Made by a program: the position numbers and the translations under genes
From: Escherichia coli
GTDB taxonomy: Bacteria > Pseudomonadota > Gammaproteobacteria > Enterobacterales > Enterobacteriaceae
NCBI RefSeq assembly: GCF_003334305.1
Contig: NZ_QOWS01000012.1
Direction: 5' to 3' (one strand)
Length of the DNA: 64,000 nt
The notes under the pieces: generated by a model
The model's database searches: none
Told to the model about the DNA's origin: nothing
What the model saw: the letters and a program-made list of their open reading frames with translations, nothing else
Shown here: positions 5,416-51,720 of the stretch, piece after piece
How the letters are laid out: each line of letters opens with the position of its first letter
Position numbering within the stretch: the first letter of the stretch is position 1

Positions 5416-5427
5416 ATCCACCAGAAA

Positions 5428-6518: not shown

Positions 6519-6607
6519 TTTTACAGCTGTTAAACCAAACGGTTATAACCTGGTCATACGCAGTAGTTCGGACAAGCGGTACATTTTAATAATTTAGGGG
6601 TTTATTG

Positions 6608-7429: not shown

Positions 7430-7454
7430 TTGAGAAAAGGTTCGGGAGCAGGCC

Positions 7455-7565: not shown

Positions 7566-7590
7566 TTCGTGTTAACGTTTAGTTTTATAC

Positions 7591-8829
7591 TCAGTCAGGC
7601 TTTGGGCAACGTTGTTCCTTCCAACTGGCTACCGCCGCAATCCGCCGTCGGGTCAGCTCCTCGCGAATCTCCACACCTTTAAATCCCGCTTCAACGACCG
7701 CTTTTGTCGGCACTGACTGCGCCACTTCCCAGGCTTCGCGCAACCAACGGCCTTGCGGGTAGTCCGCTGATTCAAAACCGGTTCTGCCGCGTACGTCAGC
7801 CTCGCTGGTCAGCGCCAGTTGCTCGACACGCTGCGGTTTACGCCAGGCATCGATGGAATCAAATAATTTGACGATGGTTTTTGGGTTCAGCATTGGGAAG
7901 GTGTGGATGAGATCGTGAAACTCAGCCACCAGTCTGGCTAAATCGCGAATTTCATTTGGCACGCGCAGACGCTGGCATAGTTGTTCCACTAACTTAACAC
8001 CCGCCGGGCCATGCCCATGATGACGCGGCCAAAGTTCTGGCGGCGTCAGTCCTTTACCGAGATCGTGGCATAAAGTTGCGAAACGGACATCAACCTGCGG
8101 ACTCAGCATCGCCGCCATTGAGAGCGTCATTAAGGTATGAATACCCGTGTCGATTTCCGGATGCCACCTGGCAGGGGCCGGAACGCCAAACAGGGCGTCA
8201 ATTTCCGGGAATAAAACGCGAAGTGCACCGCAATCGCGCAGTACCTGGAAGAACACCTGGGGATTGCGGGTGGTGAGGGCGCTTTCCGTCTCTTTCCATA
8301 CCCGTTCAGGCGTCAGGTGTTCCAGTTCACCCGCATGGGTCATCTCGCGCATCAGCGTCAGAGTTTCATCGGCAATACGAAAACCGAGGTGGGCATAACG
8401 CGCAGCAAAACGCGCCACGCGCAGAACGCGTAACGGATCTTCGCCAAAAGCGGGGGAAACATGGCGCAACAGACGATTTTGCAGATCGCCCAGACCGTTG
8501 TACGGGTCGATAATCTCGCCGTTATCGTCCTGAGCCAGCGCATTAATGGTCAGATCGCGACGCTTAAGATCATCTTCCAGCGTGACATCCGGTGCGGCAT
8601 AGCAAGTAAAACCGGTGTAACCGGAACCGGATTTCCGTTCGGTACGTGCCAGCGCATACTCTTCATGCGTTTGCGGATGCAGAAACACAGGAAAATCGCG
8701 GCCTACCTGCTGGTAGCCCGCGTCGAGCATCTCCTGTGGCGTACTGCCGACCACCACCCAATCTCTGTCTTTGACCGGTAGCCCTAACAATGCATCCCGA
8801 ACAGCACCACCGACCAGATAAATCTTCAC
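7591..8829 (-). CDS. cca: CCA-adding tRNA nucleotidyltransferase with HD domain
   Basis: 412-aa [32 protein letters not shown]-terminus. Confidence 0.95.
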
Positions 8830-8892
8830 GCCATCATCCCTTCGTCAAATACACAATTCCTAATAATAAGACAGTGCAACGAAGAAGGCGAT

Positions 8893-9513
8893 TTAGTTCA
8901 TCCAGCGATCTTTGCGTTTGCGCGTTGGGATCAGGTGTGGCAGTACCAGACCGAGCAGCAAGCCAAGCCCCAGCACGCCACCGCCATACATAAACCATTG
9001 CATGATGATGGTGCGCTGTTTGTCATCCAACTGTACGCTGGCGGCATCGACCTTTTTCTGCGCGACAATCAGCTCGTTTTTCAATTTCTGATTTTCTTCT
9101 TTTAATCCGTTGATCACGCTGTCGCTCTGCGCCACTTTTTGCTGCATTTCTGCGGTGCGCTGATTCCAGGTGTTATCGATATTGGTGAGTTTATCGGTCA
9201 GGGTTTTGACCTGATTTTCCAGATCTGGCACACGGGAGCGCAGGCTTGGCTCAGTGCTAAGTTGTTTCAACGGGATCCAGGCGGTACGGCCAGAGCTGTC
9301 TTTCACCTGGGCATAATTGGTGTTGGCGTCAGTTTGTAATAAGGTCACTTCCTCGCCGGCGTTAACCGTGCCCACGAGGCGATAATGATCTCCCGGACCG
9401 CTACGGACCCAGGTATTCAGTTCATCAGAAACATAGCGCGTTTCTTCAGCGTGTGAGACGGCAGTGGCGCTAAGTGCGAGTAAAGTTAATCCGATCAGGC
9501 GTAATTTTGGCAT
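8893..9513 (-). CDS. ygiM: SH3-domain membrane-anchored protein
   Basis: 206-aa ORF with signal peptide, coiled-coil and C-terminal TM; synteny. Confidence 0.85.
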   Translation of the reverse strand: MPKLRLIGLTLLALSATAVSHAEETRYVSDELNTWVRSGPGDHYRLVGTVNAGEEVTLLQTDANTNYAQVKDSSGRTAWIPLKQLSTEPSLRSRVPDLENQVKTLTDKLTNIDNTWNQRTAEMQQKVAQSDSVINGLKEENQKLKNELIVAQKKVDAASVQLDDKQRTIIMQWFMYGGGVLGLGLLLGLVLPHLIPTRKRKDRWMN

Positions 9514-9754
9514 CAGGCTGTCGTTATTGTCATGGAAAGTGGAACGATAGTAGTGGCATCAGTGTCGCTACGCAAAGCATTCGACATCAATCGGAATCCT
9601 CTGTGTCAGGTCTTGCCACTGCTTCAAACTTTTACGCCCGTCAAATTGCCCGTTGCATGGCAATTTGGCGCAAAATACTATCTACTGACAAAAAAGATCG
9701 CATTAAGTTCGCCGTTCATCGTCACTTATGTGACATAACCGATAAGTAAAGGCC

Positions 9755-11056
9755 ATGGCTCAGGAAATCGAATTAAAGTTTATTGTTAATCACAGTGCCG
9801 TTGAGGCGTTGCGTGACCATCTCAATACGCTGGGCGGCGAGCACCATGACCCCGTGCAGTTGCTGAATATTTACTACGAAACGCCGGATAACTGGCTGCG
9901 TGGGCACGATATGGGCTTACGTATTCGTGGCGAAAACGGTCGCTATGAGATGACCATGAAAGTTGCAGGAAGAGTGACAGGCGGCTTACACCAGCGCCCG
10001 GAATATAACGTGGCGTTGAGCGAACCGACGCTCGACCTGGCGCAGTTACCGACGGAAGTCTGGCCGAACGGCGAATTGCCCGCCGATCTCGCTTCCCGCG
10101 TACAACCGCTGTTCAGCACCGATTTTTATCGCGAAAAATGGCTGGTGGCGGTCGATGACAGCCGAATTGAAATCGCTCTCGATCAGGGGGAGGTGAAAGC
10201 GGGGGAATTTGCTGAACCTATCTGTGAGCTGGAACTGGAACTGCTTAGCGGCGACACGCGCGCGGTGCTGAAACTGGCGAACCAACTGGTATCGCAAACC
10301 GGATTACGCCAGGGCAGCCTGAGCAAAGCGGCGCGTGGCTATCATCTGGCGCAGGGCAATCCGGCGCGTGAAATCAAACCGACCACCATTTTGCATGTTG
10401 CGGCAAAAGCCGATGTGGAACAGGGGCTGGAAGCGGCGTTCGAGCTGGCGTTAGCGCAATGGCAGTATCATGAAGAACTGTGGGTACGCGGCAACGATGC
10501 GGCGAAAGAGCAGGTGCTGGCAGCCATTGGCCTTGTTCGCCATGCACTGATGCTGTTCGGTGGCATTGTGCCGCGTAAAGCGAGCACTCACTTACGTGAT
10601 TTGCTGACCCAATGCGAAGCGACCATTGCTTCTGCGGTTTCTGCCGTGACGGCGGTCTACTCTACCGAAACGGCAATGGCGAAGCTGGCGTTGACCGAAT
10701 GGTTGGTAAGCAAAGCATGGCAGCCATTTTTAGATGCCAAAGCGCAGGGCAAAATCAGCGACTCCTTCAAACGCTTTGCCGATATCCATCTTTCCCGCCA
10801 TGCCGCTGAACTGAAAAGCGTTTTCTGCCAGCCGTTAGGCGATCGCTACCGTGACCAGTTGCCACGCCTGACGCGTGAAATTGACTCAATACTGTTGCTG
10901 GCGGGTTACTATGATCCTGTCGTCGCGCAAGCCTGGCTGGAGAACTGGCAGGGGCTGCATCACGCTATTGCGACCGGGCAACGCATCGAAATTGAACATT
11001 TCCGTAATGAGGCAAACAATCAGGAACCGTTCTGGTTGCACAGCGGAAAACGTTAA
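9755..11056 (+). CDS. ygiF: Inorganic triphosphatase (CYTH + CHAD domains)
   Basis: 433-aa ORF; EIELKF CYTH signature at N-terminus. Confidence 0.85.
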
Positions 11057-11078
11057 TCAGGCAAGGATAAAATCGCTT

Positions 11079-35876: not shown

Positions 35877-35885
35877 TAATCTTTA

Positions 35886-35915
35886 CCCGGCAAACATGTG
35901 TTTTGCCGGGTTGTC
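35886..35915. terminator. parE terminator hairpin at island boundary
   Basis: cccggcaaa/tttgccggg 9-bp stem immediately after parE stop. Confidence 0.6.
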
Positions 35916-35920
35916 GCTGA

Positions 35921-36790
35921 TTATTTTATTGGGCACAGTTTGTTACGATCTGGAAATAGTGTTGCCAGCGAACCAGCCAGAGTTTTCCAGTCCGTAGCCA
36001 TTTTTTCTGCTTGTGCAGTTGTTATTACTGCACCTTGTTGTTTAATAAGCTCATCCTCCACTCTGGTATAGTGAATAATGGTAAAATCCGTAGAGGACCA
36101 TTTATCCTTAGAGAACATCTTCGTCATCGCATGAATGTTTGCTTGCCCGTCATCGATAAAAACAATCGCGTCATATTTGTTCCCCATTTTATCCAGCATA
36201 TAATCGAGAATTACGCCTTTATCTTGCCCGGAAGAAAAAAATACCCCCTGGCTGTACAGCCATGACCGTTTGAGTTTCCCTTTTTCAAAGGGTGGCAAAG
36301 TATCCTCTTTCTTCCTGAGTGCGGAAGACGAAAAATCAATGCCGTTTCGCTTTAATTCCCGCAATGTCGGAAAGAGAGTATCCGGTGCACGGGATGTCAG
36401 AGCAAAAGCGGTATGCTTTTGTTGCCACTGTTTTAACATTGTCGGTAACTGTGGCTCGGTAAGCTGCATAGGGCTAAGTTCGTAAAGCATACTGATTGTA
36501 TTTTCATACAGGCAGGGAACTTTTTGCGAGTCATCCGGCTTTAAGGGCAATTTATCGGTTTACCATTGATACCAGATATCACCGCCAATGCGTGTGCCAC
36601 TCGTTAATAACGTATTATCAATGTCAAAAACCAATAATATCTTATCGGATGGATAGAGAGTTTCCTTTTCGGTGATAATTTTACTGACCGCACTATATTC
36701 GCCAGTAACTATATTTTTTACCTGTGCGTAAGATAAAGCTGGCAGAGCAGAGAGTATCATCCAGAGAATGATTTTAAATTTATTATTCAT
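35921..36790 (-). pseudogene. Secreted HAD-superfamily phosphatase-like gene interrupted by one in-frame TAA
   Basis: ORFs 36560-36790 (signal peptide, FDIDNTLL motif) and 35921-36550 (FIDDG motif) are in the same frame; TAA at 36562-36560. Confidence 0.55.
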
Positions 36791-36803
36791 TTTTTATTCC
36801 AGA

Positions 36804-37538
36804 TTAGAAAGTATAAGTCAGACCCCAGCGCCAGCGGATTTGGCGATTACTTGATGTTTTATCCACACCTTTATAATCCGCAATACTCATATAGGGTATC
36901 CACGATCCCATTTTGTACCCTACTTTAAATGATGCGGTATAGTTTTTATGGCCATCATTCCAGGTTAAATAACCATTATTGTAATAGACCAGGTTTAACT
37001 GATATTGGAAGTTGGTTTTTTGTGGTCGATAGTCGATCCACACATCGTAACGGCGGTTATTACGATCATCGTTGCCATAACCTTTGGATTTATCGGTAGC
37101 TTTATCCATGTCATAACGAAAACGACCCGAAACTTTCCATTCTTTGCTGAAATCATAACCCGCAGAAAGACCATATTCGTAAGTTGACCAATATTGCGTG
37201 GTATCAAGCCAGAACATGGGTTCTAACCAGAATTTTTTGTCATCCAGCGGCTTAAAGCGGTAAACAACAGATAATCCTGTTCCGTTATTGCCAAATTGTG
37301 AGGGGTCCCACTTATCTTTATCACCTTCATCGGTGTTATAGCGTAATTCTCCCATCAAACCGATACCATTACTAAAAAATGTACCAAATTCAACGCGGTC
37401 CGCGTGGGTGCGAGTATCATCAAGATACTCATGACGATAATCAATAAATCCATGCGGCTGTTCTGCACAGACTAGTGTAGGTGACAGGCAGGATAACATT
37501 GTTATTCCTGCAAGTGATATTTTAAGATAAGAATTCAT
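36804..37538 (-). CDS. Small outer-membrane beta-barrel porin, KdgM/NanC-like
   Basis: 244-aa ORF; signal peptide; alternating aromatic/polar strands; C-terminal TYTF with terminal Phe. Confidence 0.65.
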   Translation of the reverse strand: MNSYLKISLAGITMLSCLSPTLVCAEQPHGFIDYRHEYLDDTRTHADRVEFGTFFSNGIGLMGELRYNTDEGDKDKWDPSQFGNNGTGLSVVYRFKPLDDKKFWLEPMFWLDTTQYWSTYEYGLSAGYDFSKEWKVSGRFRYDMDKATDKSKGYGNDDRNNRRYDVWIDYRPQKTNFQYQLNLVYYNNGYLTWNDGHKNYTASFKVGYKMGSWIPYMSIADYKGVDKTSSNRQIRWRWGLTYTF

Positions 37539-37633
37539 AATATTCCCTTTCAGAATAAAATATATTTTTGGTGATCGAATACACCATCTGATGATTCCAG
37601 GTATTAGAATGTTTTTTTATCTATAGTTTGACT

Positions 37634-38758
37634 TTAAATTTTAAGTTTGTTTTCCTTATCAATGAATAGATAAAATTTCGTCTGTTGATGGGGCTGGAAA
37701 TTATTATCAGATACAAATATTAACGATGTATGCCCATCAATCAGAGGACCGAAGGTTACCCCTTCAATACAATCCGCAGAGGAAGTGTAATCAGCAAAAT
37801 CAATTAATAATTTTTTACTGACGGGTTGTAACGTGGATTTATTGGACCAATCTTGCAGACTGTCAATATCCTTGATATCGCTGGCAGCAGTTAAATCGAC
37901 CATATAAACTCTGACAGAGTAATCCCAGTCATTGAACCCAGCACTGACGTTTCTGCCGGAACGTTCGATGACCAACAATTGGTGATCATTCAGCGCCAGG
38001 ACCTCGGATACGCCATTATCATTAATACCGAACTTACTCACTTGCGGAACAGGATCAGTAATATAGAGATATTCATGCAATTGCTTTGAAGGTCGACCGT
38101 CTGCATCTATAGAAAATTGCAGTAAGCGTGATGTACCTGAATTTATTGGACTTGCAATAGGCCCATCCTGTTTAAGGCTGCTTTCAACGGCGATAAAAAG
38201 TGATTTTCCATCTGGTGTAACTGTCAGGCCCTCCCAGGCGTTGCCGCTGCGAATACCATTGCTGCTCTCTTTGTCAGAACTAATATTAAATCGAGCAGGA
38301 AATAAAGACGTAAAATCTTTCTCCATTACGCCATCGAGAGTGCTCAGACGCAGTGGAGCACCTAACTCCGAACTCCATAGTAATGACTTACCATTGTGTG
38401 TCAGGGCCAGACCTTCGGCATCCACCGTATTGGTCACGAAAGGCTGCTGTTTTGCATCAAGCAGTGGACGCTGGTTGAGAAAATTCACTTGCTCAATGCC
38501 CCTGGATGATACCTGTATTTTTAGTGTATAAAGACTGGCATCTCCTTCTTTATTATTGTTTCTGCTATCGTTAATAGCATAGAAAATATTTTTTTTTGCA
38601 TCAAATGTGATGGCTGATAGCCCCGCGATTGTAACATTGTTCTGTTTTTCTCCCGTCCGGAAGTTGAACTCACCAGCATAATGAAGAAAACTGTTTGCCT
38701 GCGCTGTTGTGCATAACAGCGGTAATGCCAGAAAAATAGCGGCATGTCTTATTTTCAT
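37634..38758 (-). CDS. Secreted protein, beta-propeller-like (phytase-like/esterase-like family guess), function unknown
   Basis: 374-aa ORF; signal peptide MKIRHAAIFLALPLLCTTAQA; repeated EGL..T.DGKSL blade-like motifs. Confidence 0.55.
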   Translation of the reverse strand: MKIRHAAIFLALPLLCTTAQANSFLHYAGEFNFRTGEKQNNVTIAGLSAITFDAKKNIFYAINDSRNNNKEGDASLYTLKIQVSSRGIEQVNFLNQRPLLDAKQQPFVTNTVDAEGLALTHNGKSLLWSSELGAPLRLSTLDGVMEKDFTSLFPARFNISSDKESSNGIRSGNAWEGLTVTPDGKSLFIAVESSLKQDGPIASPINSGTSRLLQFSIDADGRPSKQLHEYLYITDPVPQVSKFGINDNGVSEVLALNDHQLLVIERSGRNVSAGFNDWDYSVRVYMVDLTAASDIKDIDSLQDWSNKSTLQPVSKKLLIDFADYTSSADCIEGVTFGPLIDGHTSLIFVSDNNFQPHQQTKFYLFIDKENKLKI

Positions 38759-38787
38759 GATATTTACCTTTGTGTATGTATCTGATT

Positions 38788-39702
38788 TTAGTCGTGTTGT
38801 GAAAGAAAAAGATTAACTTCCGATGGTGTCGCCAGATGACCTCTGGCACCTAATGCAGTAATATTTATTGCTGCAGTGGCAGAAGCAAATTTTAGTGCTT
38901 CAATTAAGGGCATGTTTTTTATTAAGCTATAAACAAATGCACCATTAAAAGTATCTCCAGCGCCAGTGGTATCAATAATGGGAATTGTATAGCTACCTAT
39001 TTTTACTTGCTCATTGCCTTTGACTGCAATTACTCCCCTAACATCCAGCGTAACCACGACAGCCTCAAGTTGATACTCGTCTTGTATATCATGCAGAAGT
39101 GTAAAATCTGGCTCTGCTGCATAGCCACGAATAAAACCGTCATAATTAAATATCGCAATATCAGCAAGGTGTAAAATTCTGGCAAGGTGTTCAGGTGTTG
39201 CAATGATATGAGGCTCAATATCAACGACAACTTTTGTCATCTGGCTACGGGAATATTCGGCCAGCATACGAAATTTCTCGATATCTGCTGGCATCGTATA
39301 ATAATAACGGCTTTGCGCAATTGCCTGCAGGGCTTTTTCTTTATCCCACTCATGATCACTACCAGGCGAGTAAACCAACGTTTTTTCACCTAATTCATCA
39401 ATAAAGATAATCGCGGTATTGGCAATCAATTCCGGAATTACCTGAACGAAATCACAATTTACATGATATTTTTTAAATCCATCAAGAATGATCGAGGCTG
39501 AATGATCATTGCCCACACATGAAACAGATACCACATTGAGACCCAGTTGTCCCATCGCACAGGCACTGTTGGCGACTGTGCCGCCAGCTTGTTCACCCAG
39601 ACGTGTCCCGACCACTTTACCGCCACGAGTGGGGAGTGACGGGATAGATAAAAAAATATCTATATTTCCACTGCCTAAAGCGGCGACATCAAATTTCTTC
39701 AT
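38788..39702 (-). CDS. PfkB-family carbohydrate kinase (ribokinase-like)
   Basis: ORF track 322 aa; start placed at ATG 39702 (MKKFDVAALGSGNID) with AGGGAG SD; C-terminal DTTGAGDTF motif. Confidence 0.8.
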   Translation of the reverse strand: MKKFDVAALGSGNIDIFLSIPSLPTRGGKVVGTRLGEQAGGTVANSACAMGQLGLNVVSVSCVGNDHSASIILDGFKKYHVNCDFVQVIPELIANTAIIFIDELGEKTLVYSPGSDHEWDKEKALQAIAQSRYYYTMPADIEKFRMLAEYSRSQMTKVVVDIEPHIIATPEHLARILHLADIAIFNYDGFIRGYAAEPDFTLLHDIQDEYQLEAVVVTLDVRGVIAVKGNEQVKIGSYTIPIIDTTGAGDTFNGAFVYSLIKNMPLIEALKFASATAAINITALGARGHLATPSEVNLFLSQHD

Positions 39703-39706
39703 AGTC

Positions 39707-40705
39707 TTATTTCTCCCTATGGCTAACGCGTTGCCCGCCTGCGTCGACATAATCACAACTTAAATGCCAGCACATTTCATATAACCACTGCATGACCAGA
39801 AATAAATTGTTGGACTCACTGGCATCAGGTATAAAACTGATTAATTCTGCTGTCGCTCCCTGTTCAACAATTGCTTTTTGGGTTGCAATGTAAAATGGGT
39901 ACTCGCGGGATGTAGCTGGCAGTAAAAAATAATGCTGACCGACACCAGCCTGATGTAAGCGTAATGAATGATAAAATTCTTCCAGTGGAAAGGCTGTCGC
40001 ACGAATCTGTGGGCCGCAAGAAAGTAAATTGCTCCCCGATATTGCTAGTCCCCAACTTAAGCCACTCCCCAGAAACGTTATCTCTTTTTGTTGGTAAAAA
40101 TGGCGCTTCTTTTGCTGCCAGTGCTGATTAATCTGGCTAAATTTCCCTTCTAAATCCTCTTCAATTTGCAGTGGTGTTAAGCCTGGACATAAGTTTTGCG
40201 CTAAGCGCAGGAGGGTATAAAGTGTGACGCTACTACTTTGCGTTGGAATACCCTGCTTATTCGCCCATGTATAGAGCATGTTTTCTGTTATTGCGCAAAA
40301 TGGTGTTCCAGGGCAATTCGTCACACCCAGCACTTGCGCGTTTGAGCATACTGCGTGGCTAAGGGCGTCAACGGTCAGTGATGGTCTGCCACTTGCGCTG
40401 AGAATAATGATCAACGTTTCTTTCTGATAACGGGTTAAATCAGTCTGAAGAAAATCCCACGTTTGCAATGCGGAACAAAACAGATGTGTGTATTTCCCCA
40501 GCCAGGCGGCGGCACATAGTGCCACCGTCCAGGAGTCGCCCGATCCCACTATACAGACGCGTTCAACAGCACGTTTATCGAGCTGAACAGATGAAAAACA
40601 TTCACCCCAGATAGCTGCCAAATGGCGTAGCGCTGCCGCCGTTGCATTTATTTCCTCACGAGTTTGCGCTAATGGCATAACAGGAGCACGGGCTGGCATG
40701 TTCAT
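39707..40705 (-). CDS. Tandem SIS-domain phosphosugar isomerase/deglycase-like protein
   Basis: 332-aa ORF; two SIS-like segments (CIVGSGDSW, ITFLGSGLSWG); start overlaps upstream stop as TAATG. Confidence 0.7.
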   Translation of the reverse strand: MNMPARAPVMPLAQTREEINATAAALRHLAAIWGECFSSVQLDKRAVERVCIVGSGDSWTVALCAAAWLGKYTHLFCSALQTWDFLQTDLTRYQKETLIIILSASGRPSLTVDALSHAVCSNAQVLGVTNCPGTPFCAITENMLYTWANKQGIPTQSSSVTLYTLLRLAQNLCPGLTPLQIEEDLEGKFSQINQHWQQKKRHFYQQKEITFLGSGLSWGLAISGSNLLSCGPQIRATAFPLEEFYHSLRLHQAGVGQHYFLLPATSREYPFYIATQKAIVEQGATAELISFIPDASESNNLFLVMQWLYEMCWHLSCDYVDAGGQRVSHREK

Positions 40706-41781
40706 TATTTCTCCTGTGCCTGTACTGCAAGCAATGTCAGACCCGATGCGATCGCTTCAACATCGAAATCTTTATTATTTACGGCGCGGAAAAAGGCATA
40801 TTTATCTTCAGGGAGCGCATCAAAACCGCGCCATGCCCCTGCAATTGCGCCTGCCATCGTAGCGATGCTATCGGTGTCATTGCCAATATTGGCGCAGGCA
40901 TGGATGGTTTCCCAGGGTTCTCCTTTGCAGTACAGCAATAGACCGATTGCCGCAGGAATGGATTCATGGGCGGCAACAGAGTTACCAACCAAACCTTCCA
41001 TTTCTCGCAGACAAGACTCCAGATCATTGGCACGTCTGGCGATGTCCGCTGCAAGTTGGATGCGCATGGCGATAGATGGCCCTGCTACACATCGTGCATA
41101 TTGTTTGGCCAGGCGTTCGCCGTAATTCGCTCCCCAGATTGCGGCATCCAGTAATGATGTGAGCGAGGCTTCTGGTAACATAGCCTGCGATGTCGCTGCA
41201 GCGATGGCGCAAGCGCTGGCAATCGCAATATTGGTGTCATGTGAAGGTAGGCAAGTTATTAACGCCAGGCGACACGCTTTTTCTTTCTTGCCAGGCCAGA
41301 TCAATCCTGCCGGGGCTACACGCATTCCTGCGCCATTCGTGGTGCCGACATTGGGGGCCTGACGAGAAGATGTTCCAATACGCCCAATGGTGTTTGTTGG
41401 TCTACCTTCTTTTAGTGCCTTGACGATTTGTTCTGTTGTGGGGCCTTTATAATTTGCGTAGGGCTGCATATCGGCCCAACGCAGAAGACAAGCTAACCAG
41501 TCATTATTGGTGAAGTTATCAAATCCAGCCTCAATTAACCCTTCTGAAAACACATACATTTGGCTGGAATCGTCGGTGATAAGTCCTGCAACACCATTTA
41601 ATGAGCCAGCAAAGGTATCGGCAGGAGGAGAAACAAAGGCATTTAAAAAACCTCCCCATTGAGTTTTTATTTCATCAATGCTGTAGAGTTCAGTCGCTGC
41701 GCCTAATGCATCGCCCATACCTGCGCAGGCTAAAGAACCTAATATTTTGTTATAAATTACGGCTTGTTCTATTTTGTTCAC
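40705..41781 (-). CDS. ADP-ribosylglycohydrolase-family hydrolase
   Basis: 358-aa ORF (GTG start with GAGAG SD); GSLACAGMGDALGAATE near N-terminus and GNDTDSIA near C-terminus. Confidence 0.75.
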   Translation of the reverse strand: MNKIEQAVIYNKILGSLACAGMGDALGAATELYSIDEIKTQWGGFLNAFVSPPADTFAGSLNGVAGLITDDSSQMYVFSEGLIEAGFDNFTNNDWLACLLRWADMQPYANYKGPTTEQIVKALKEGRPTNTIGRIGTSSRQAPNVGTTNGAGMRVAPAGLIWPGKKEKACRLALITCLPSHDTNIAIASACAIAAATSQAMLPEASLTSLLDAAIWGANYGERLAKQYARCVAGPSIAMRIQLAADIARRANDLESCLREMEGLVGNSVAAHESIPAAIGLLLYCKGEPWETIHACANIGNDTDSIATMAGAIAGAWRGFDALPEDKYAFFRAVNNKDFDVEAIASGLTLLAVQAQEK

Positions 41782-41794
41782 AATATTCTCTCTG

Positions 41795-42547
41795 TTACAC
41801 GCTAAAACTGTCTTTTGTAATTCGTGCTTTGTAGGAGTACCGACTTGCGGGATAAACCATCTCTACATACTCCATTGGTTTACGTTCCACGGATAACGTG
41901 ACGCGGGTACAACTTAATACGACGTCATCGGCAGTCAGTTCCAGTAATTGACGCTCAAGGGGCGAGGGAAGCCGGGCAGAGATAATCTCCGTTGCTTCTA
42001 AAGGTTTAATAGCGAGTTTTTCTTCCAGTAAAATATAGAGCGAACCCGTCGCCAGCAGCTCTTCCAGAGTTATTTCTTGTCCGTCATTTAACGCAAGCCA
42101 TGATGTCTGAATACCCAGCGGCGTACTTCCCATATAGCGAATGCGTTTTATACAGAAAACGGTATGGACATGGATATCAAGTTCGAGATTTTTTCTGATA
42201 ATATCACTGAGAGGAATATAACCTATTTCAAGAATATTCTGTGCCGGTACGCCACCACGAGCCTTAATGTCATCAGTAAAACTATGTAATAAATGATTTT
42301 CCCGACTGCGAGCCGGTAATGTAAATGTTCCTTGCCCGTGGACACTATGCAGGTATCCGCGTTGTTTCAAACTTTCTATTGCTTTCCGAATTGTTGTTCT
42401 GCTGCTTAAAAAATGTTCAGCCAGTTCTCTTTCTGTTGGTATAGCTTTGCCTTCTTTCCATTCACCGTTATCAATTTTTTTCTTTATTTCATCAAAAATT
42501 TCACGATGCTTTAGCTGACCTTTACTGGCTTTATAAATTCTTATCAT
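41795..42547 (-). CDS. GntR/HutC-family transcriptional regulator with UTRA effector domain
   Basis: 250-aa ORF; winged-HTH ERELAEHFLSSRTTIRKAIESL at N-terminus; first gene of minus-strand array. Confidence 0.8.
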   Translation of the reverse strand: MIRIYKASKGQLKHREIFDEIKKKIDNGEWKEGKAIPTERELAEHFLSSRTTIRKAIESLKQRGYLHSVHGQGTFTLPARSRENHLLHSFTDDIKARGGVPAQNILEIGYIPLSDIIRKNLELDIHVHTVFCIKRIRYMGSTPLGIQTSWLALNDGQEITLEELLATGSLYILLEEKLAIKPLEATEIISARLPSPLERQLLELTADDVVLSCTRVTLSVERKPMEYVEMVYPASRYSYKARITKDSFSV

Positions 42548-42833
42548 GACAAAGCCTCATTTCAAGTGGTTGATACCAACTTTACATTCTTTTATTTTTA
42601 TTGCGCAGTATGCTTATTTGTTATCTGTGACATAAAACAGGAAAAACCACATTTATTAATAAATATCATGCGGTTAAGTGAAATTGGTTTTTATGTGATG
42701 CTGCTCAATATTAACTCAGTGGTTTGTTGTGGTATCTACCAATGCATTTATTCTCAATCGTAAAGTTATGTGCTGAATGAGTTCCGATACATTTGTTTTT
42801 AATATAATTTCATGTGATTAATGAGTGCTGTGT

Positions 42834-44165
42834 ATGAAACTGACAATAAATGAAAAGATAGGTTTTGGTGCCGGTGATATGGCCATTGCGATAGTAATGA
42901 TGTCTTTAGCCATGATCATCACTTATTTTTACACGGATGTATTTGGTCTGAAACCCGTCGACTTAGGTATTCTGTTATTTTCTGTACGTATTCTTGATGC
43001 TGTGATTGATCCAGTTGTGGGAACAATGACAGACATAACGAATACACGTTGGGGAAAATATCGGCCATGGTTGCTTTTTATGTCAATACCGTTTGGGATA
43101 AGCATTTGGTTGATGTTCACCACACCTGATACCGATTATTCAGTTAAGCTTTTATGGGCCTGGGCTACCTATGTGTTACTTACCTTGACCTATACGTTAA
43201 TCGCTATTCCTTATGTTTCATTAATCAGCGTTATCACGGATGATCCACAAGAGAGATTGAGCGCCAATGGTTATCGTTTTGTTATGACAAAAATTGCCAT
43301 GTTCGCCGTAACAATTATTGTTCCTTTATCTGCAATGTATCTTGGGAAGAATAACGTACAACTGGGTTATCAAATAGCAATGGGGACAATGGGTATTCTG
43401 GCAACGTGTTTATGCCTGTATTGTTTTTTTAGCGTGAGAGAGCGCATCTACCATCCAAAACCCAGTCTCGGTATGGCCGCGCAGTTTCGGTTACTGATCA
43501 AAAATGATCAATGGCTCATTTTGGGCGCTGTAATTGCGATCATTATGTTTGGCGGGATTATTCGTAACTCTGTCGCTGCATATTATGCAAAATATTACCT
43601 GAGTGGTGGGGATGCTTTAATTTCACCGTTTTTAACTTCAGGCGTGATCGCCTCAGTTCTGGCTATGATCGCTTGCACCTGGCTTACTCGTCTCTATGAC
43701 AAAATAAAAATATTTCGTTATACCCAATTACTGGCGTTCGTGGTGGGTGGTGCGATGTATTTCGTGCAACCAAATTCTATAGTGCTAGCTTTTACATTTT
43801 ATATTGTGGTGACTTTCCTGACGGATATCCAGCTTCCCATTTATTGGGCATCCATTGCTGAGTCCGTGGATTACGGTGAAATGAAAACGGGGCAACGTGT
43901 TTCTGGCCTGGCATTTGGCGGGATTCTCTTTTTCCAAAAGTTCGGTATGGGGCTGGCAGGGGGCTTTATCGGAATCGCTTTAGCCTATCTGGATTATCAA
44001 CCAGGCGTAGAACAAACACCACAGGCGCTGTGGGGGATCTGCCTGTTAATGACGATCATTCCCGCGATACTTAACCTGCTTACCGGACTCATCATGAGAT
44101 TTTATCTGATTAATAATGAATATTACGAACAGATAAAAGCACGGTTACAAACGGCGGAAGAGTGA
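42834..44165 (+). CDS. GPH-family (MelB-like) glycoside:cation symporter
   Basis: ORF from GTG 42825; ATG at 42834; 12-TM profile; D..G...D..TNTRWGKYRPW signature. Confidence 0.8.
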   Translation: MKLTINEKIGFGAGDMAIAIVMMSLAMIITYFYTDVFGLKPVDLGILLFSVRILDAVIDPVVGTMTDITNTRWGKYRPWLLFMSIPFGISIWLMFTTPDTDYSVKLLWAWATYVLLTLTYTLIAIPYVSLISVITDDPQERLSANGYRFVMTKIAMFAVTIIVPLSAMYLGKNNVQLGYQIAMGTMGILATCLCLYCFFSVRERIYHPKPSLGMAAQFRLLIKNDQWLILGAVIAIIMFGGIIRNSVAAYYAKYYLSGGDALISPFLTSGVIASVLAMIACTWLTRLYDKIKIFRYTQLLAFVVGGAMYFVQPNSIVLAFTFYIVVTFLTDIQLPIYWASIAESVDYGEMKTGQRVSGLAFGGILFFQKFGMGLAGGFIGIALAYLDYQPGVEQTPQALWGICLLMTIIPAILNLLTGLIMRFYLINNEYYEQIKARLQTAEE

Positions 44166-44173
44166 AAATAAAT

Positions 44174-44200
44174 GGCCGGCAAGCAGCACCGGCCTCTTTT
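44174..44200. terminator. Intrinsic terminator between island transporter and ygiN
   Basis: ggccgg/ccggcc stem followed by tctttt. Confidence 0.65.
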
Positions 44201-44208
44201 CAGAAATA

Positions 44209-48433: not shown

Positions 48434-48916
48434 ATGACAAACCTGACACTGGATGTAAACATTATCGATTTCCCATCAATCCCTGTGGCGATGTTGCCGC
48501 ACCGCTGTAGCCCTGAGTTGCTCAACTACAGTGTGGCGAAATTTATCATGTGGCGTAAAGAGACGAGGCTTTCTCCTGTTAACCAAAGCCAGACTTTTGG
48601 CGTCGCCTGGGACGACCCTGCCACCACCGCACCGGAAGCGTTTCGCTTTGATATCTGCGGCAGCGTTAGCGAACCGATTCCCGATAATCGTTATGGTGTG
48701 AGCAATGGTGAACTTACCGGTGGACGTTATGCCGTGGCCCGCCACGTTGGCGAGCTGGACGATATTTCACACACGATATGGGGCATTATTCGCCACTGGC
48801 TGCCTGCAAGCGGCGAGAAAATGCGTAAAGCACCGATTCTGTTTCACTACACCAATCTTGCCGAAGGGGTGACAGAGCAGCGACTGGAAACGGATGTTTA
48901 TGTGCCGTTGGCGTGA
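48434..48916 (+). CDS. ygiV: GyrI-like domain transcription factor
   Basis: 160-aa ORF; synteny after ygiW. Confidence 0.8.
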   Translation: MTNLTLDVNIIDFPSIPVAMLPHRCSPELLNYSVAKFIMWRKETRLSPVNQSQTFGVAWDDPATTAPEAFRFDICGSVSEPIPDNRYGVSNGELTGGRYAVARHVGELDDISHTIWGIIRHWLPASGEKMRKAPILFHYTNLAEGVTEQRLETDVYVPLA

Positions 48917-49461
48917 TGGGGAATCTTTACCGGAGTGTGAGCCAAATCACTCGCGATAAGTTTGAGCGAACAATGCCACAGGCGTATTGTTGTTGGGCTT
49001 ATAATTTCTCCGGTAAGGAATACCATGTATACGCGAAATTTATTATCCGGTGCGCCGTAAGCCGTCTCGGGGGTATCCATGAGCAAGCCGCACTTATGGC
49101 AGGAGGCGCGGGGCACTGGTGGAGACACAGCTAAACTGGGCTGAACCGTATACTTACAGTCGACTACTTTGATGCTTTAGGCTTCCCTGGACTCGCATAA
49201 CCTCAACTTCTCGAATCGCCCGGAGCGGACCCCCATGCCGAGTGGTGTGGCATGGGCGCAACCTTGTGCTGCCCTCTATGCCGATCAAGTCTACAGCAAA
49301 GAGTTGTATATCAAGGCACATTGATGCCTTTATCGCCGTCGGAGCACGTCCGGCGGCGCTATTCACGCTGATCTCCTGTGACTCGACGCGGCAGATAATG
49401 TAGTATCTCCGGCAATATTGCCCCTTTGAAGGCTGGCGAATAAGTTGAGGAATCAGAATTA

Positions 49462-51720
49462 ATGAGCGATATGGCAGAGCGCCTTGCGCTACATGAATTT
49501 ACGGAAAACGCCTACTTAAACTACTCCATGTACGTGATCATGGACCGTGCGTTGCCGTTTATTGGCGATGGTCTTAAACCTGTTCAGCGCCGCATTGTGT
49601 ATGCGATGTCTGAACTGGGCCTGAATGCCAGCGCCAAATTTAAAAAATCGGCCCGTACCGTCGGTGACGTACTGGGTAAATACCATCCGCACGGCGATAG
49701 CGCCTGTTATGAAGCGATGGTCCTGATGGCGCAGCCGTTCTCTTACCGTTATCCGCTGGTTGATGGTCAGGGGAACTGGGGCGCGCCGGACGATCCGAAA
49801 TCGTTCGCGGCAATGCGTTACACCGAATCCCGGTTGTCGAAATATTCCGAGCTGCTATTGAGCGAGCTGGGGCAGGGGACGGCTGACTGGGTGCCAAACT
49901 TCGACGGCACTTTGCAGGAGCCGAAAATGCTGCCTGCTCGTCTGCCAAACATTTTGCTTAACGGCACCACCGGTATTGCCGTCGGCATGGCGACCGATAT
50001 TCCACCGCATAACCTGCGTGAAGTAGCTCAGGCGGCAATCGCATTAATCGACCAGCCGAAAACCACGCTCGATCAGCTGCTGGATATCGTGCAGGGGCCG
50101 GATTATCCGACTGAAGCGGAAATTATCACTTCGCGCGCCGAGATCCGTAAAATCTACGAGAACGGACGTGGTTCAGTGCGTATGCGCGCGGTGTGGAAGA
50201 AAGAAGATGGCGCGGTGGTTATCAGCGCATTACCGCATCAGGTTTCAGGTGCGCGCGTACTGGAGCAAATTGCTGCGCAAATGCGCAATAAAAAGCTGCC
50301 GATGGTTGACGATCTGCGCGATGAATCTGACCACGAGAACCCGACCCGTCTGGTGATTGTGCCGCGTTCCAACCGCGTGGATATGGATCAGGTGATGAAC
50401 CACCTCTTCGCTACCACCGATCTGGAAAAGAGCTATCGCATTAACCTCAATATGATCGGTCTGGATGGTCGTCCGGCGGTGAAAAACCTGCTGGAAATCC
50501 TCTCCGAATGGCTGGTGTTCCGTCGCGATACCGTGCGCCGCCGACTGAACTATCGTCTGGAGAAAGTCCTCAAGCGCCTGCATATCCTGGAAGGTTTGCT
50601 GGTGGCGTTTCTCAACATCGACGAAGTGATTGAGATCATTCGTAACGAAGATGAACCGAAACCGGCGCTGATGTCGCGGTTTGGCCTTACGGAAACCCAG
50701 GCGGAAGCGATCCTCGAACTGAAACTGCGTCATCTTGCCAAACTGGAAGAGATGAAGATTCGCGGTGAGCAGAGTGAGCTGGAAAAAGAGCGCGACCAGT
50801 TGCAGGGCATTTTGGCTTCCGAGCGTAAAATGAATAACCTGCTGAAGAAAGAACTGCAGGCAGACGCGCAAGCCTACGGTGACGATCGTCGTTCGCCGTT
50901 GCAGGAACGCGAAGAAGCGAAAGCGATGAGCGAGCACGACATGCTGCCGTCTGAACCTGTCACCATTGTGCTGTCGCAGATGGGTTGGGTACGCAGCGCT
51001 AAAGGCCATGATATCGACGCGCCGGGCCTGAATTATAAAGCGGGTGATAGCTTCAAAGCGGCGGTGAAAGGTAAGAGCAACCAACCGGTAGTGTTTGTTG
51101 ATTCCACCGGTCGTAGCTATGCCATCGACCCGATTACGCTGCCGTCGGCGCGTGGTCAGGGCGAGCCGCTCACCGGCAAATTAACGTTGCCGCCTGGGGC
51201 GACCGTTGACCATATGCTGATGGAAAGCGACGATCAGAAACTGCTGATGGCTTCCGATGCGGGTTACGGTTTCGTCTGCACCTTTAACGATCTGGTGGCG
51301 CGTAACCGTGCAGGTAAGGCTTTGATCACCTTACCGGAAAATGCCCATGTTATGCCGCCGGTGGTGATTGAAGATGCTTCCGATATGCTGCTGGCAATCA
51401 CTCAGGCAGGCCGTATGTTGATGTTCCCGGTAAGCGATCTGCCGCAGCTGTCGAAGGGCAAAGGCAACAAGATTATCAACATTCCATCGGCAGAAGCCGC
51501 GCGTGGAGAAGATGGTCTGGCGCAATTGTACGTTCTGCCGCCGCAAAGCACGCTGACCATTCATGTTGGGAAACGCAAAATTAAACTGCGCCCGGAAGAG
51601 TTACAGAAAGTCACTGGCGAACGTGGACGCCGCGGTACGTTGATGCGCGGTTTGCAGCGTATCGATCGTGTTGAGATCGACTCTCCTCGCCGTGCCAGCA
51701 GCGGTGATAGCGAAGAGTAA
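49462..51720 (+). CDS. parC: DNA topoisomerase IV subunit A
   Basis: 752-aa ORF; active-site region AAMRYTE. Confidence 0.95.

What the first reader, a model, noticed from the sequence alone, without database searches (positions are those of the whole stretch)
35877..44208. ~8.3 kb AT-rich accessory locus between parE and ygiN: candidate uptake/catabolic module
parE (+, ends 35876) and ygiN (-, ends 44209) are adjacent convergent genes in K-12 as I recall. Here they are separated by eight extra ORFs that look AT-richer by eye than the flanks. Seven are tightly stacked on the minus strand (gaps 1-30 nt, one TAATG overlap), consistent with one operon: GntR/UTRA regulator; ADP-ribosylglycohydrolase-family enzyme (GDALG and NDTDS metal motifs); tandem-SIS protein; PfkB kinase (GAGD); signal-peptide beta-propeller-like protein; KdgM/NanC-like porin (C-terminal Phe); and a periplasmic HAD-like gene (DIDNT) cut by a TAA. 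A GPH-family symporter is divergent across a 280-bp AT-rich control region. Porin, symporter, hydrolase, kinase and SIS isomerase/deglycase under a GntR repressor is the logic of glycoside or Amadori-compound operons (compare frlABCDR), but the ARH-family enzyme and secreted propeller are unusual. The substrate may be a ribosylated or otherwise N-/O-glycosylated compound; I cannot name it. No integrase, transposase or repeats mark how it arrived.
Basis: partly seen in the sequence, partly recalled or inferred. Interest (0 to 1): 0.85.

Follow-up and report, generated by a model that had tools for sequence, protein, structure and literature searches.

The report
Uncharacterised riboside-scavenging island in E. 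coli
Some E. coli strains carry an 8.3-kb foreign gene cluster between parE and ygiN that most likely takes up and breaks down a nucleoside-like (ribosylated) nutrient; the same core genes occur across several bacterial phyla, but I found no report of its substrate.

Summary
An 8.3-kb island (42.5% GC, flanks about 52%) lies between parE and ygiN, which are 47 bp apart in K-12. All eight domain assignments are confirmed. It occurs in 408 of 5,426 complete E. coli genomes and is under purifying selection (dN/dS 0-0.34).

Comparison of 65+ related loci refines the interpretation. The core GntR-ARH-(SIS)-PfkB set travels with nucleoside-related genes: Bmp-type ABC importers, Tsx, inosine-uridine nucleoside hydrolases, adenosine-deaminase-like genes and UshA-type 5'-nucleotidases. 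In proteobacteria it also travels with the secreted phytase-like propeller and an outer-membrane channel. A TGGT-N4-ACCA operator pair in the divergent region recurs upstream of the regulator in all 18 orthologous loci checked.

The kinase is a distinct ARH-partner subfamily, not a canonical ribokinase. The ARH keeps the ARH3 catalytic and metal residues, but the adenine-stacking residues have no match.

Best reading: a repressor-controlled pathway that dephosphorylates a nucleotide-like precursor in the periplasm, imports the riboside, and cleaves it with the kinase, ARH and SIS enzymes. The substrate is unknown. The closest relative, K-12 yegTUV-yegW, is also unsolved, and I found no paper on this locus. 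I rate it a new variant of a known kind, of moderate interest.

The parts
35885..35911 (.). GC-rich hairpin (ACCCGGCAAA...TTTGCCGGGT) between the parE stop and the DUF2608 stop. It is a likely two-way terminator and marks the left junction of the island.
   Evidence: Read directly from the sequence. It replaces the K-12 spacer hairpin GCCCGGTCAGGATGGCCGGGC.
35921..36790 (-). DUF2608 (PF11019) periplasmic HAD-type phosphatase-like gene. It is a pseudogene in this strain: Gln77 CAA>TAA at 36560-36562.
   Evidence: RefSeq marks an 'internal stop'. A single C>T difference separates it from the intact 289-aa alleles in L002, L003 and L005-L007. The signal peptide and the DIDNT and FIDDG HAD motifs are read from the translation. 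There are weak HAD-IIIC hits, and homologues often also hit PF03767 acid phosphatase B.
36804..37538 (-). KdgM-family outer-membrane porin (244 aa, signal peptide, C-terminal Phe).
   Evidence: PF06178. RefSeq annotates it as 'porin'. It co-occurs with the phytase-like gene in 7 gamma-proteobacterial loci plus L085 and L087.
37634..38758 (-). Secreted 'phytase-like' (PF13449) 5-bladed beta-propeller with many invariant Asp/Glu. It is a presumed periplasmic metal-dependent phosphoesterase.
38788..39702 (-). PfkB-family kinase of the subfamily that partners with the ARH gene. It is ribokinase-like but not a canonical ribokinase.
   Evidence: PF00294. It scores 142 bits on TIGR02152 against a cut-off of 299.65. 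It is orthologous to the ARH-adjacent PfkB in other phyla, whereas the second PfkB in those loci scores 232-237 bits as ribokinase.
39707..40705 (-). Double-SIS phosphosugar enzyme of the GlmS-isomerase / NagB-II / AgaS / FrlB fold class.
40705..41781 (-). ADP-ribosylglycohydrolase-family (PF03747) enzyme, cytoplasmic. It is the signature gene of the locus.
   Evidence: PF03747. The best PDB sequence matches are MJ1187 and ARH3. The catalytic Glu and metal motifs are conserved. It is 31% identical to K-12 YegU.
41795..42547 (-). GntR/HutC-subfamily regulator (wHTH + UTRA). It is the first gene of the 7-gene minus-strand block.
   Evidence: PF00392 + PF07702. The best NCBIfam matches are HutC, PhnF and TreR, all below cut-off.
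42548..42833 (.). 286-bp divergent control region at 31% GC.
42567..42578 (.). Candidate operator 1, TGGTTGATACCA, about 20 bp upstream of the gntR start.
   Evidence: TGGT-N4-ACCA sites lie next to the regulator gene in all 18 orthologous loci checked.
42730..42741 (.). Candidate operator 2, TGGTATCTACCA, about 90 bp upstream of the symporter start.
42834..44165 (+). GPH-family (MFS_2) cation symporter, the inner-membrane importer.
   Evidence: TIGR00792 scores 346 bits against a cut-off of 231. PF13347.
44174..44194 (.). Hairpin GGCCGG...CCGGCC between the symporter stop and the ygiN stop. It marks the right junction and is shared with strains that carry the fit-like iron locus instead.
   Evidence: Terminator scan. 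Junction comparison with O157.

Best explanation
This is a self-contained regulon, controlled by a HutC-type repressor, for scavenging a ribosylated, nucleoside-like compound. The compound probably reaches the cell as a phosphorylated or phosphodiester-linked precursor.

Proposed steps:
1. The anionic precursor crosses the outer membrane through the KdgM-family porin.
2. In the periplasm, the secreted 5-bladed phytase-like propeller (a presumed metal-dependent phosphoesterase) and a phosphatase strip the phosphate groups. The phosphatase is DUF2608/HAD here and a UshA-type 5'-nucleotidase in other species.
3. The GPH symporter imports the neutral riboside. Other lineages use a Bmp-type nucleoside ABC importer instead.
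4. In the cytoplasm, the dedicated non-canonical PfkB kinase and the ARH-family metal-dependent glycohydrolase cleave the ribosyl linkage. The order may be kinase first, as in PsuK/PsuG, releasing ribose-5-phosphate plus aglycone.
5. The GlmS/NagB-II-like double-SIS enzyme converts the resulting phosphosugar into a central-metabolism intermediate.
6. The GntR/UTRA repressor binds two TGGT-N4-ACCA operators in the divergent region, and a pathway intermediate releases it.

Shown: gene content, folds, conserved catalytic motifs, conserved synteny, the conserved operator, purifying selection and the strain distribution. Inferred: every enzymatic step, the order of kinase and hydrolase, and the nature of the substrate. 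Adenosine-deaminase-like genes recur next to the core, which hints at an adenine-containing riboside. In this strain the periplasmic phosphatase carries a nonsense mutation, so that step would need a housekeeping enzyme.
For: - Domain assignments are confirmed.
- Among 67 ARH-centred loci, partner genes occur as follows: PfkB in 57, inosine-uridine nucleoside hydrolase in 38, GntR in 37, Bmp ABC components in 31-36, phytase-like in 24, TonB receptor in 22, SIS in 20, MFS_2 in 9, KdgM in 7 and adenosine-deaminase-like in 7.
- Pfam-labelled examples: Providencia has KdgM, MFS_2, ADA | GntR, ARH, SIS, PfkB, phytase-like, UshA. Vibrio has 5'-nucleotidase, phytase-like, KdgM | Tsx, GntR, Bmp-ABC, ARH, SIS, PfkB. 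Herbaspirillum and Pseudoduganella have TonB receptor, Bmp-ABC, ARH, PfkB(x2), IUNH, phytase-like. A marine locus has 6 IUNH, ARH, 2 SIS, 4 complete PfkB genes plus a fifth cut at the locus end, and a nucleoside:H+ symporter. A Yersinia plasmid has UshA, phytase-like, PfkB, SIS, ARH, GntR | KdgM, MFS, XapX.
- The KdgM, phytase-like and DUF2608 trio recurs in Vibrio mediterranei.
- The ARH keeps the ARH3 catalytic and metal residues, but ARH3's adenine-stacking residues have no counterpart.
- The kinase is the ARH-adjacent subfamily, not the ribokinase-like paralogue.
- The operator is conserved in all 18 loci checked.
- dN/dS is 0-0.34 for all eight genes between divergent E. coli alleles.
- There are no PADLOC hits.
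Against: - No enzyme activity, inducer or growth phenotype is known for any member of this locus.
- GPH symporters usually carry glycosides rather than nucleosides.
- SIS is absent from most related loci and the GlmS catalytic Glu488 position is not conserved by my reading of the alignment, so its role is unclear.
- If the product were plain ribose-5-phosphate, no SIS enzyme would be needed.
- Gene neighbourhood associations do not name a substrate.
- The DUF2608 gene is dead here, and IS elements disrupt the island in a few strains, so the pathway may be dispensable.
Confidence: 0.55

Rival explanations
1. The module catabolises a ribofuranosyl or other glycoside that has no nucleobase. Candidates are fragments of ribose- or ribitol-phosphate polymers (capsules, teichoic acids) or plant and microbial glycosides. 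The propeller and phosphatase would depolymerise and dephosphorylate the polymer, GPH would import a disaccharide-like glycoside, ARH would act as a ribofuranosidase, and PfkB and SIS would feed the sugar into metabolism.
For: GPH/MFS_2 transporters typically carry glycosides; YagG, YicJ and MelB are the nearest NCBIfam models. KdgM porins typically pass acidic oligosaccharides (my knowledge). The combination of porin, GPH, hydrolase, isomerase and PfkB resembles the E. coli sulfoquinovose yih cluster (my knowledge). Bacteroides ribose-utilisation loci with ARH genes are proposed to target varied ribose sources, including capsules.
Against: In most lineages the importer is a Bmp-type ABC system. 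Tsx, IU-nucleoside hydrolases, adenosine-deaminase-like genes, UshA-type 5'-nucleotidases and XapX are recurrent neighbours. All of these point to nucleosides.
Confidence: 0.15
2. The module is an frl-like pathway for Amadori or glycated-amine compounds. The kinase would phosphorylate a ketosamine and the SIS protein would act as a deglycase, as in frlABCDR or fraBD.
Confidence: 0.08
3. The module scavenges organic phosphate. The phytase-like enzyme and the phosphatase would release phosphate from phytate or other esters, and the rest of the locus would be incidental.
For: The family is named phytase-like. HAD and UshA phosphatases sit next to it. The literature mentions PF13449 genes mostly in phosphate-solubilising or P-limited bacteria.
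Confidence: 0.07
4. The ARH enzyme reverses ADP-ribosylation of a protein or nucleic acid, with a regulatory, antitoxin or anti-defence role, and merely sits next to sugar genes.
For: All biochemically characterised ARH-family members that matched in the PDB searches (DraG, ARH3, and Tri1 in NCBIfam) remove ADP-ribose from macromolecules or act on ADP-ribose derivatives. The catalytic residues are intact.
Against: It is translationally coupled to SIS and PfkB in one operon. There is no ADP-ribosyltransferase partner in any locus and no PADLOC hit. The pairing with kinases, nucleoside hydrolases and importers is constant across phyla. ARH3's adenine-stacking residues are not matched.
Confidence: 0.04

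Closest known systems
E. coli K-12 yegTUV-yegW (GgaR) locus
   Same: The architecture matches: importer, ARH-family hydrolase, PfkB kinase and GntR/UTRA repressor. YegU aligns with the island ARH over its full length at 31% identity.
   Different: The two are paralogous, not orthologous: kinases are 22% identical and regulators 25%. yegT is an NHS-family nucleoside transporter rather than GPH. yegTUV has no SIS, porin, propeller or periplasmic phosphatase. Its biochemical function is also unknown; it has been linked to ADP-glucose and glycogen only through regulator studies (PMC10819704).
Pseudouridine catabolism psuT-psuK-psuG (yeiM-yeiC-yeiN) of E. coli
   Same: The logic I propose is the same: a nucleoside transporter, a PfkB kinase that phosphorylates the nucleoside, and then a glycosidase that acts on the 5'-phosphate to give ribose-5-phosphate plus base (my knowledge; PMC9247573 was listed).
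   Different: The glycosidase family is unrelated (PsuG against ARH). The pseudouridine kinase model scores only E = 1e-4. The kinase-first order is unproven here.
Bacteroides ribose-utilisation systems (Rus loci) that contain ADP-ribosylglycohydrolases
   Same: These are ribose or nucleoside scavenging loci that combine ribokinases, nucleoside-cleaving enzymes (including ARH homologues in some species), transporters and outer-membrane uptake (10.1101/574913).
   Different: They have a SusC/D-type PUL architecture and different regulators. The ARH-containing variants were catalogued, not characterised.
Haemophilus influenzae periplasmic NAD processing (NadN plus e(P4), then PnuC)
   Same: It has the same front-end logic: a porin, a periplasmic 5'-nucleotidase/pyrophosphatase (UshA/NadN family) and a HAD acid phosphatase convert a nucleotide to a riboside for import (my knowledge). 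UshA-type genes or DUF2608/PF03767-like genes occupy this position here.
   Different: That system serves salvage rather than catabolism. It has no ARH, PfkB or SIS, and the phytase-like propeller has no counterpart.
frlABCDR fructoselysine operon
   Same: It also has a GntR regulator, a PfkB kinase and a double-SIS enzyme.
   Different: See the membership tests. The kinase and SIS are not FrlD or FrlB equivalogues, the transporter class differs, and frl has no ARH, porin or propeller.

Membership tests
ADP-ribosylglycohydrolase family (PF03747; ARH1/ARH3/DraG) | Significant match to the family profile over the whole domain | tested here: met
   PF03747 is precomputed for this exact protein. 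The profile of 25 orthologues hits MJ1187 at 5.5e-36 and ARH3 at 1e-16 over residues 10-329.
ADP-ribosylglycohydrolase family (PF03747; ARH1/ARH3/DraG) | Catalytic Glu and the two metal-binding acidic motifs (ARH3 E41; T76-D77-D78; D314-x-D316-T317) | tested here: met
   E31, T69-D70-D71 and D302-T303-D304-S305 align to these positions and are invariant in 25 orthologues. ARH3 residue numbering is from memory.
ADP-ribosylglycohydrolase family (PF03747; ARH1/ARH3/DraG) | Binding site for the adenosine part of ADP-ribose (ARH3 F143 and Y149 stacking) | tested here: not met
   In the profile alignment Y149 falls in an insertion relative to this clade, and F143 aligns to a non-aromatic column. This is alignment-level evidence only.
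ADP-ribosylglycohydrolase family (PF03747; ARH1/ARH3/DraG) | Hydrolysis of an ADP-ribosyl linkage | not testable with these tools
   This needs an enzyme assay. The DraG and Tri1 equivalogue models score far below cut-off: 41.9 against 337 and 22.2 against 490.
GntR family, HutC subfamily | N-terminal winged HTH plus C-terminal UTRA effector domain | tested here: met
   PF00392 + PF07702. Full-length alignments to the HutC, PhnF and TreR models are below their equivalogue cut-offs.
GntR family, HutC subfamily | Palindromic operator near the regulated promoters | tested here: met
   Two TGGT-N4-ACCA sites lie in the 286-bp divergent region. The window has 4 such sites in 64 kb, and 2 of them are here. 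The same motif lies next to the regulator gene in all 18 orthologous loci checked. Binding itself was not tested.
Ribokinase RbsK (equivalogue) | Score at or above the curated cut-off of TIGR02152 / NF008353 | tested here: not met
   142.2 against 299.65 and 129.5 against 341. In loci with two PfkB genes, the non-orthologous copy is the ribokinase-like one at 232-237 bits. PfkB superfamily membership is met (PF00294).
Double-SIS phosphosugar enzymes (GlmS isomerase domain / NagB-II / AgaS / FrlB) | Two SIS subdomains, phosphate-binding loops and the ExxH motif | tested here: met
frlABCDR-type Amadori catabolic operon | FrlD-type ketosamine 6-kinase | tested here: not met
   NF007321 scores 44.2 bits against a cut-off of 247, over the C-terminal third only.
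frlABCDR-type Amadori catabolic operon | FrlB-type deglycase | tested here: inconclusive
   BLASTP identity is 19% over 166 aa and hhalign probability is 98%. Structurally the protein is nearer to GlmS and NagB-II than to FrlB.
frlABCDR-type Amadori catabolic operon | APC-type amino-acid-like transporter (FrlA) and epimerase (FrlC) | tested here: not met
   The transporter is GPH/MFS_2 and no epimerase gene is present.
GPH (glycoside-pentoside-hexuronide:cation symporter) family | Score above the TIGR00792 cut-off | tested here: met
   346.2 bits against 231.35. No substrate-specific equivalogue is reached: YagG 360 against 610, UidB-type 212 against 528, MelB 196 against 456.
KdgM/NanC outer-membrane porin family | PF06178 match, signal peptide and C-terminal aromatic residue | tested here: met
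   PF06178. The N-terminal signal-like sequence and the terminal ...LTYTF are read.
Phytase-like (PF13449) beta-propellers | Family profile match and propeller fold | tested here: met
   PF13449. The model is a 5-bladed propeller, pLDDT 90.
Phytase-like (PF13449) beta-propellers | Phosphoesterase or phytase activity | not testable with these tools
   No characterised close relative exists: there is no PDB sequence hit, and only generic propeller neighbours appear by fold.
HAD-superfamily phosphatase (DUF2608 / acid phosphatase B-like) | DxDxT nucleophile motif and an intact reading frame | tested here: not met
   The motifs are present (DIDNT, FIDDG), but the frame is broken by Q77* in this window. 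The gene is intact in all five other E. coli copies compared.
Classical integrative genomic island | Integrase, tRNA target or flanking direct repeats | tested here: not met
   The window has no tRNA, no integrase or transposase ORF lies in the island, and the junctions carry no repeats. The locus looks like a flank-recombined hotspot cassette.

The most novel reading that the evidence does not exclude
The ARH-family protein is not a de-ADP-ribosylase. It would be the glycosidase of an undescribed, phylogenetically widespread catabolic pathway for a non-canonical riboside, working with its own dedicated PfkB kinase in a kinase-then-glycosidase sequence like that of pseudouridine. One candidate substrate is an alpha-linked or O-ribosylated adenosine, such as the ribosyl-adenosine core released from poly(ADP-ribose) or NAD-derived material. 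The phytase-like propeller would be the first assigned periplasmic phosphodiesterase of family PF13449. Solving this locus would also explain K-12 yegTUV.
Probability: 0.3. Interest if true: 0.7.

Novelty: new variant of a known kind. Interest (0 to 1): 0.5.

Why it matters
Repressor-controlled nutrient-scavenging islands are common. This one stands out because it is built around an enzyme family known so far only for removing ADP-ribose from macromolecules or acting on ADP-ribose derivatives.

The same ARH and partner-kinase core, with the same operator, recurs with nucleoside importers and nucleoside hydrolases in gamma-, beta- and alpha-proteobacteria. Without the GntR regulator, the core also occurs in Chloroflexi. 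That suggests an unrecognised branch of nucleoside or ribose-conjugate catabolism in gut, soil and marine bacteria.

E. coli provides a tractable host. There are natural presence and absence strains, a small divergent promoter suited to reporter screens, and a paralogous orphan operon (yegTUV) in K-12. Identifying the substrate would assign functions to three poorly understood families: this ARH clade, PF13449 and DUF2608. It could also reveal a niche nutrient that distinguishes about 7.5% of E. coli strains.

Tried and rejected
- **Literature.** Seven full-text searches found no paper that characterises this locus or its enzymes. The terms covered parE/ygiN with ARH; yegTUVW; ARH with ribokinase, nucleoside and SIS; the phytase-like family name; ARH with phylogroup; and ARH with modified nucleosides. 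A DUF2608 search failed for lack of capacity and was not repeated.
- **Sequence search of the PDB.** The phytase-like protein had no hit. The SIS protein had only weak GlmS-type hits.
- **Defence-system reading.** There were no PADLOC hits, so I rejected it.
- **Mobile-element reading in E. coli.** The island has no tRNA, Rfam element, integrase or junction repeats. It does sit on an IS-flanked segment of a Yersinia plasmid and beside a Tn7-like element in Vibrio.
- **DUF2608 in Alteromonas-type genomes.** One context look-up failed. The other showed a stand-alone gene, which was uninformative.
- **Substrate candidates.** I considered ADP-heptose, cobalamin/alpha-ribazole, NAD/nicotinamide riboside and teichoic-acid fragments. 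None explains all the parts, and none can be tested with these tools.
- **Distinguishing a nucleoside kinase from a sugar kinase by residues.** I did not attempt this, because the diagnostic residues are shared.

Full report
**1. Observation**

RefSeq annotates an identical strain, A7, the same way:
- DUF2608 pseudogene with an internal stop
- porin
- 'esterase-like activity of phytase' protein
- carbohydrate kinase
- SIS protein
- ADP-ribosylglycohydrolase-family protein
- GntR regulator
- a divergent MFS transporter

Precomputed Pfam hits for these exact proteins give PF11019, PF06178, PF13449, PF00294, PF01380, PF03747, PF00392+PF07702 and PF13347. NCBIfam places the transporter in the GPH family above its cut-off. 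No enzyme reaches a substrate-specific equivalogue.

The island is 42.5% GC against about 52% in the flanks. Its GC3 is 0.32-0.43 against 0.55-0.59 for parE, mdaB and qseC. The DUF2608 frame is broken by one CAA>TAA change at codon 77 (36560-36562). All five other E. coli copies compared have the intact 289-aa gene.

**2. Distribution in E. coli**

The interior of the island is found in 408 of 5,426 complete E. coli genomes. It is always chromosomal. It is single copy in all but two of these genomes (410 places in 408 genomes). Identities to the window cluster near 100%, 98% and 97.1%. The parE-ygiN spacer exists in at least four states:
- empty: 47 bp with one hairpin, as in K-12
- this island alone (the window)
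- a TonB-receptor/FecCD iron-uptake locus alone, as in O157:H7
- both, side by side, as in strain 317

The right-hand hairpin of the window matches the one that follows the iron locus in O157, with a few loop and tail substitutions. The left hairpin is the one seen in strain 317. The states therefore look like differential loss or flank-mediated exchange at a hotspot, not site-specific integration. There is no integrase, transposase, tRNA or junction repeat.

Between the window and strain 317, all eight genes have dN/dS of 0-0.34. Their dS is mosaic, from 0.02 for the porin to 0.30 for gntR, against 0.16 for parE. The genes are under purifying selection and have a recombinant history. A few genomes carry IS insertions in the island.

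**3. Comparative context**

ARH orthologues of 65-85% identity occur in Enterobacter, Leclercia, Providencia, Klebsiella, Kosakonia, Trabulsiella, Yersinia and Vibrio. Orthologues of about 50% identity occur in many Burkholderiales, in Rhizobiales and Azospirillaceae, and in Chloroflexi.

I clustered ORFs from 67 ARH-centred loci without using annotation. The partner genes were:

| Partner | Loci (of 67) |
|---|---|
| PfkB | 57 |
| inosine-uridine nucleoside hydrolase (often several copies) | 38 |
| GntR | 37 |
| Bmp-type ABC importer components | 31-36 |
| phytase-like | 24 |
| TonB receptor | 22 |
| SIS | 20 |
| MFS_2 | 9 |
| KdgM | 7 |
| adenosine-deaminase-like | 7 |

Pfam-labelled examples confirm this picture:
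- **Enterics and Vibrio:** GntR-ARH-SIS-PfkB in that order, with KdgM and the phytase-like gene nearby. The importer is either MFS_2 or a Bmp-ABC system, and Vibrio adds Tsx.
- **Burkholderiales:** TonB receptor, Bmp-ABC, ARH, PfkB (sometimes two), IUNH, phytase-like.
- **Marine Chloroflexi-type loci:** ARH sits among 3-6 IUNH genes, several PfkB genes, 1-2 SIS genes and a nucleoside:H+ symporter.

The periplasmic phosphatase slot is filled by a UshA-type 5'-nucleotidase in Providencia, Vibrio and a Yersinia frederiksenii plasmid. It is filled by DUF2608 in E. coli and Vibrio mediterranei. DUF2608 homologues often also hit acid phosphatase B, PF03767.

On the 254-kb mobilisable Yersinia plasmid the whole module lies between IS6 and IS3 transposases and includes XapX. 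In one Vibrio it abuts a Tn7-like transposon. The module therefore moves horizontally, even though the E. coli copy shows no mobility genes.

**4. Regulation**

The 286-bp divergent region holds TGGTTGATACCA (42567-42578) and TGGTATCTACCA (42730-42741). The general pattern TGGT-N4-ACCA occurs only four times in the 64-kb window, and two of those are here. I defined the narrower pattern after seeing the sites, so its shuffle statistic is inflated. The independent test is conservation. One to three TGGT-N4-ACCA sites (consensus TGGTACGTACCA) lie directly next to the regulator gene in 17 of 17 orthologous loci from gamma-, beta- and alpha-proteobacteria, and also in the Yersinia plasmid locus. 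This fits the palindromic operators typical of HutC-subfamily regulators such as DasR and NagR (my knowledge). It argues for one conserved regulon.

**5. The enzymes**

*ARH.* The profile of 25 orthologues aligns end to end with human ARH3. The ARH3 catalytic Glu41, the T76-D77-D78 motif, His182 and the D314-x-D316-T317 motif correspond to invariant E31, T69-D70-D71, H181 and D302-x-D304-S305. The adenine-stacking residues F143 and Y149 have no counterpart (ARH3 numbering from memory). The closest solved relative is MJ1187, of unknown function. K-12 YegU is 31% identical over the full length. The yegTUV-yegW locus has the same architecture but remains functionally unresolved.

*Kinase.* It scores 142 bits on the ribokinase model, against a cut-off of 300. 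It is the orthologue of the PfkB gene that directly abuts ARH in beta- and alpha-proteobacteria. Where a second PfkB is present, that copy is the ribokinase-like one, at 232-237 bits. The ARH partner kinase is therefore a distinct subfamily. This argues against simple 'hydrolyse, then phosphorylate free ribose' logic. It is compatible with phosphorylation of the riboside before cleavage, as in PsuK/PsuG.

*Phytase-like protein.* A confident 5-bladed propeller (pLDDT 90) with many invariant acidic residues. The fold search gives only generic propeller neighbours.

**6. Interpretation**

The constant features are:
- a repressor with a conserved operator
- an importer of nucleoside or glycoside type
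- the ARH and partner-kinase pair
- in proteobacteria, an outer-membrane channel plus periplasmic phosphoester-processing enzymes

The variable neighbours are all nucleoside-related: IUNH, ribokinase, adenosine-deaminase-like genes, Tsx, XapX and UshA.

The most economical reading is a scavenging pathway for a ribosylated, nucleoside-like compound that reaches the cell as a phosphorylated precursor. The steps would be periplasmic dephosphorylation, import, kinase- and ARH-mediated cleavage of the ribosyl bond, and SIS-mediated conversion of the phosphosugar. I put about 0.55 on this class of function. The substrate is not identified. The recurrent adenosine-deaminase-like neighbour hints at an adenine-containing riboside. 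A ribosyl-adenosine derived from poly(ADP-ribose) or NAD would use every part except SIS, but that is speculation.

The rivals are less well supported by the neighbourhood data: a base-free ribofuranoside or other glycoside, an frl-like Amadori pathway, phosphate scavenging, or true de-ADP-ribosylation. The reasons are given under each rival.

**7. Comparison and novelty**

The nearest known system is K-12 yegTUV-yegW, which is paralogous and itself unsolved. The nearest mechanistic analogue is psuTKG. The nearest ecological analogue is the set of Bacteroides Rus loci that include ARH genes, which were catalogued but not characterised. The periplasmic front end resembles Haemophilus NadN/e(P4) processing (my knowledge).

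No paper in the searchable library characterises this locus. It is already annotated in RefSeq at family level, so the genes are not new. What is new is the reading of the locus as one conserved, cross-phylum regulon centred on an ARH-family catabolic enzyme. I class it as a new variant of a known kind, a repressor-controlled nutrient-scavenging cluster, and give it an interest score of 0.5. It is not very surprising to a specialist. It is a well-defined, tractable orphan pathway that would also resolve yegTUV.

Noticed in passing
window 35877-35920 and 44166-44208; loci L002, L012, L013: The parE-ygiN spacer is a multi-state hotspot. It can be empty (K-12), hold this island, hold a fit-like TonB-receptor/FecCD/RpiR iron-uptake locus (O157:H7), or hold both side by side (strain 317). 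The terminator hairpins at the junctions are shared between states, apart from a few substitutions.
   Followed up: partly
L087 (Yersinia frederiksenii plasmid NZ_MT039225.1, locus 3362-15781): The whole module lies between IS6 and IS3 transposases on a 254-kb mobilisable plasmid. It consists of UshA, phytase-like, PfkB, SIS, ARH, GntR | KdgM, MFS and XapX.
   Followed up: partly
L010 12485-19062 (Vibrio bivalvicida): A Tn7-like transposition module (TnsA, B, C, D and E) starts about 400 bp after the PfkB gene of the orthologous locus.
   Followed up: no
window 36804-42547 compared with L002: Synonymous divergence between two E. coli alleles of the island is strongly mosaic: dS is 0.02 for the porin, 0.30 for gntR and 0.16 for parE. 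This suggests recombination inside the island.
   Followed up: partly
hits H57, H62, H82: IS4, IS903B and ISVsa5 insertions interrupt the island in a few E. coli genomes. Together with the Q77* allele in this window, they show occasional decay.
   Followed up: no
window 48916-49462: Only about 545 bp separate ygiV (48434-48916) from parC (49462-51720). From memory, K-12 carries mqsR-mqsA-ygiS there, and O157 has ygiS after ygiV. This strain therefore appears to lack ygiS and the MqsRA toxin-antitoxin pair.
   Followed up: no
window 15445-15594 and 15821-15970: Two tandem Sib antitoxin sRNA genes (RF00113, 142 and 148 bits).
   Followed up: no
window 24663-24811 and 58888-58951: An FMN riboswitch (upstream of ribB by comparison) and an ES173 sRNA match.
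   Followed up: no
PLSDB record NZ_OL790696.1 (hit H91): A 4.8-Mb E. coli record filed among plasmids carries the island at 100% identity. It is almost certainly a chromosome mislabelled as a plasmid.
   Followed up: no
L083 1066-3054 (marine metagenome contig): In a large nucleoside-hydrolase-rich ARH locus, a BtpA-family gene and a PRAI gene sit nearby. PRAI is phosphoribosylanthranilate isomerase, an Amadori-rearrangement enzyme for N-ribosylamines. This may be a hint about ribosylamine chemistry.
   Followed up: no
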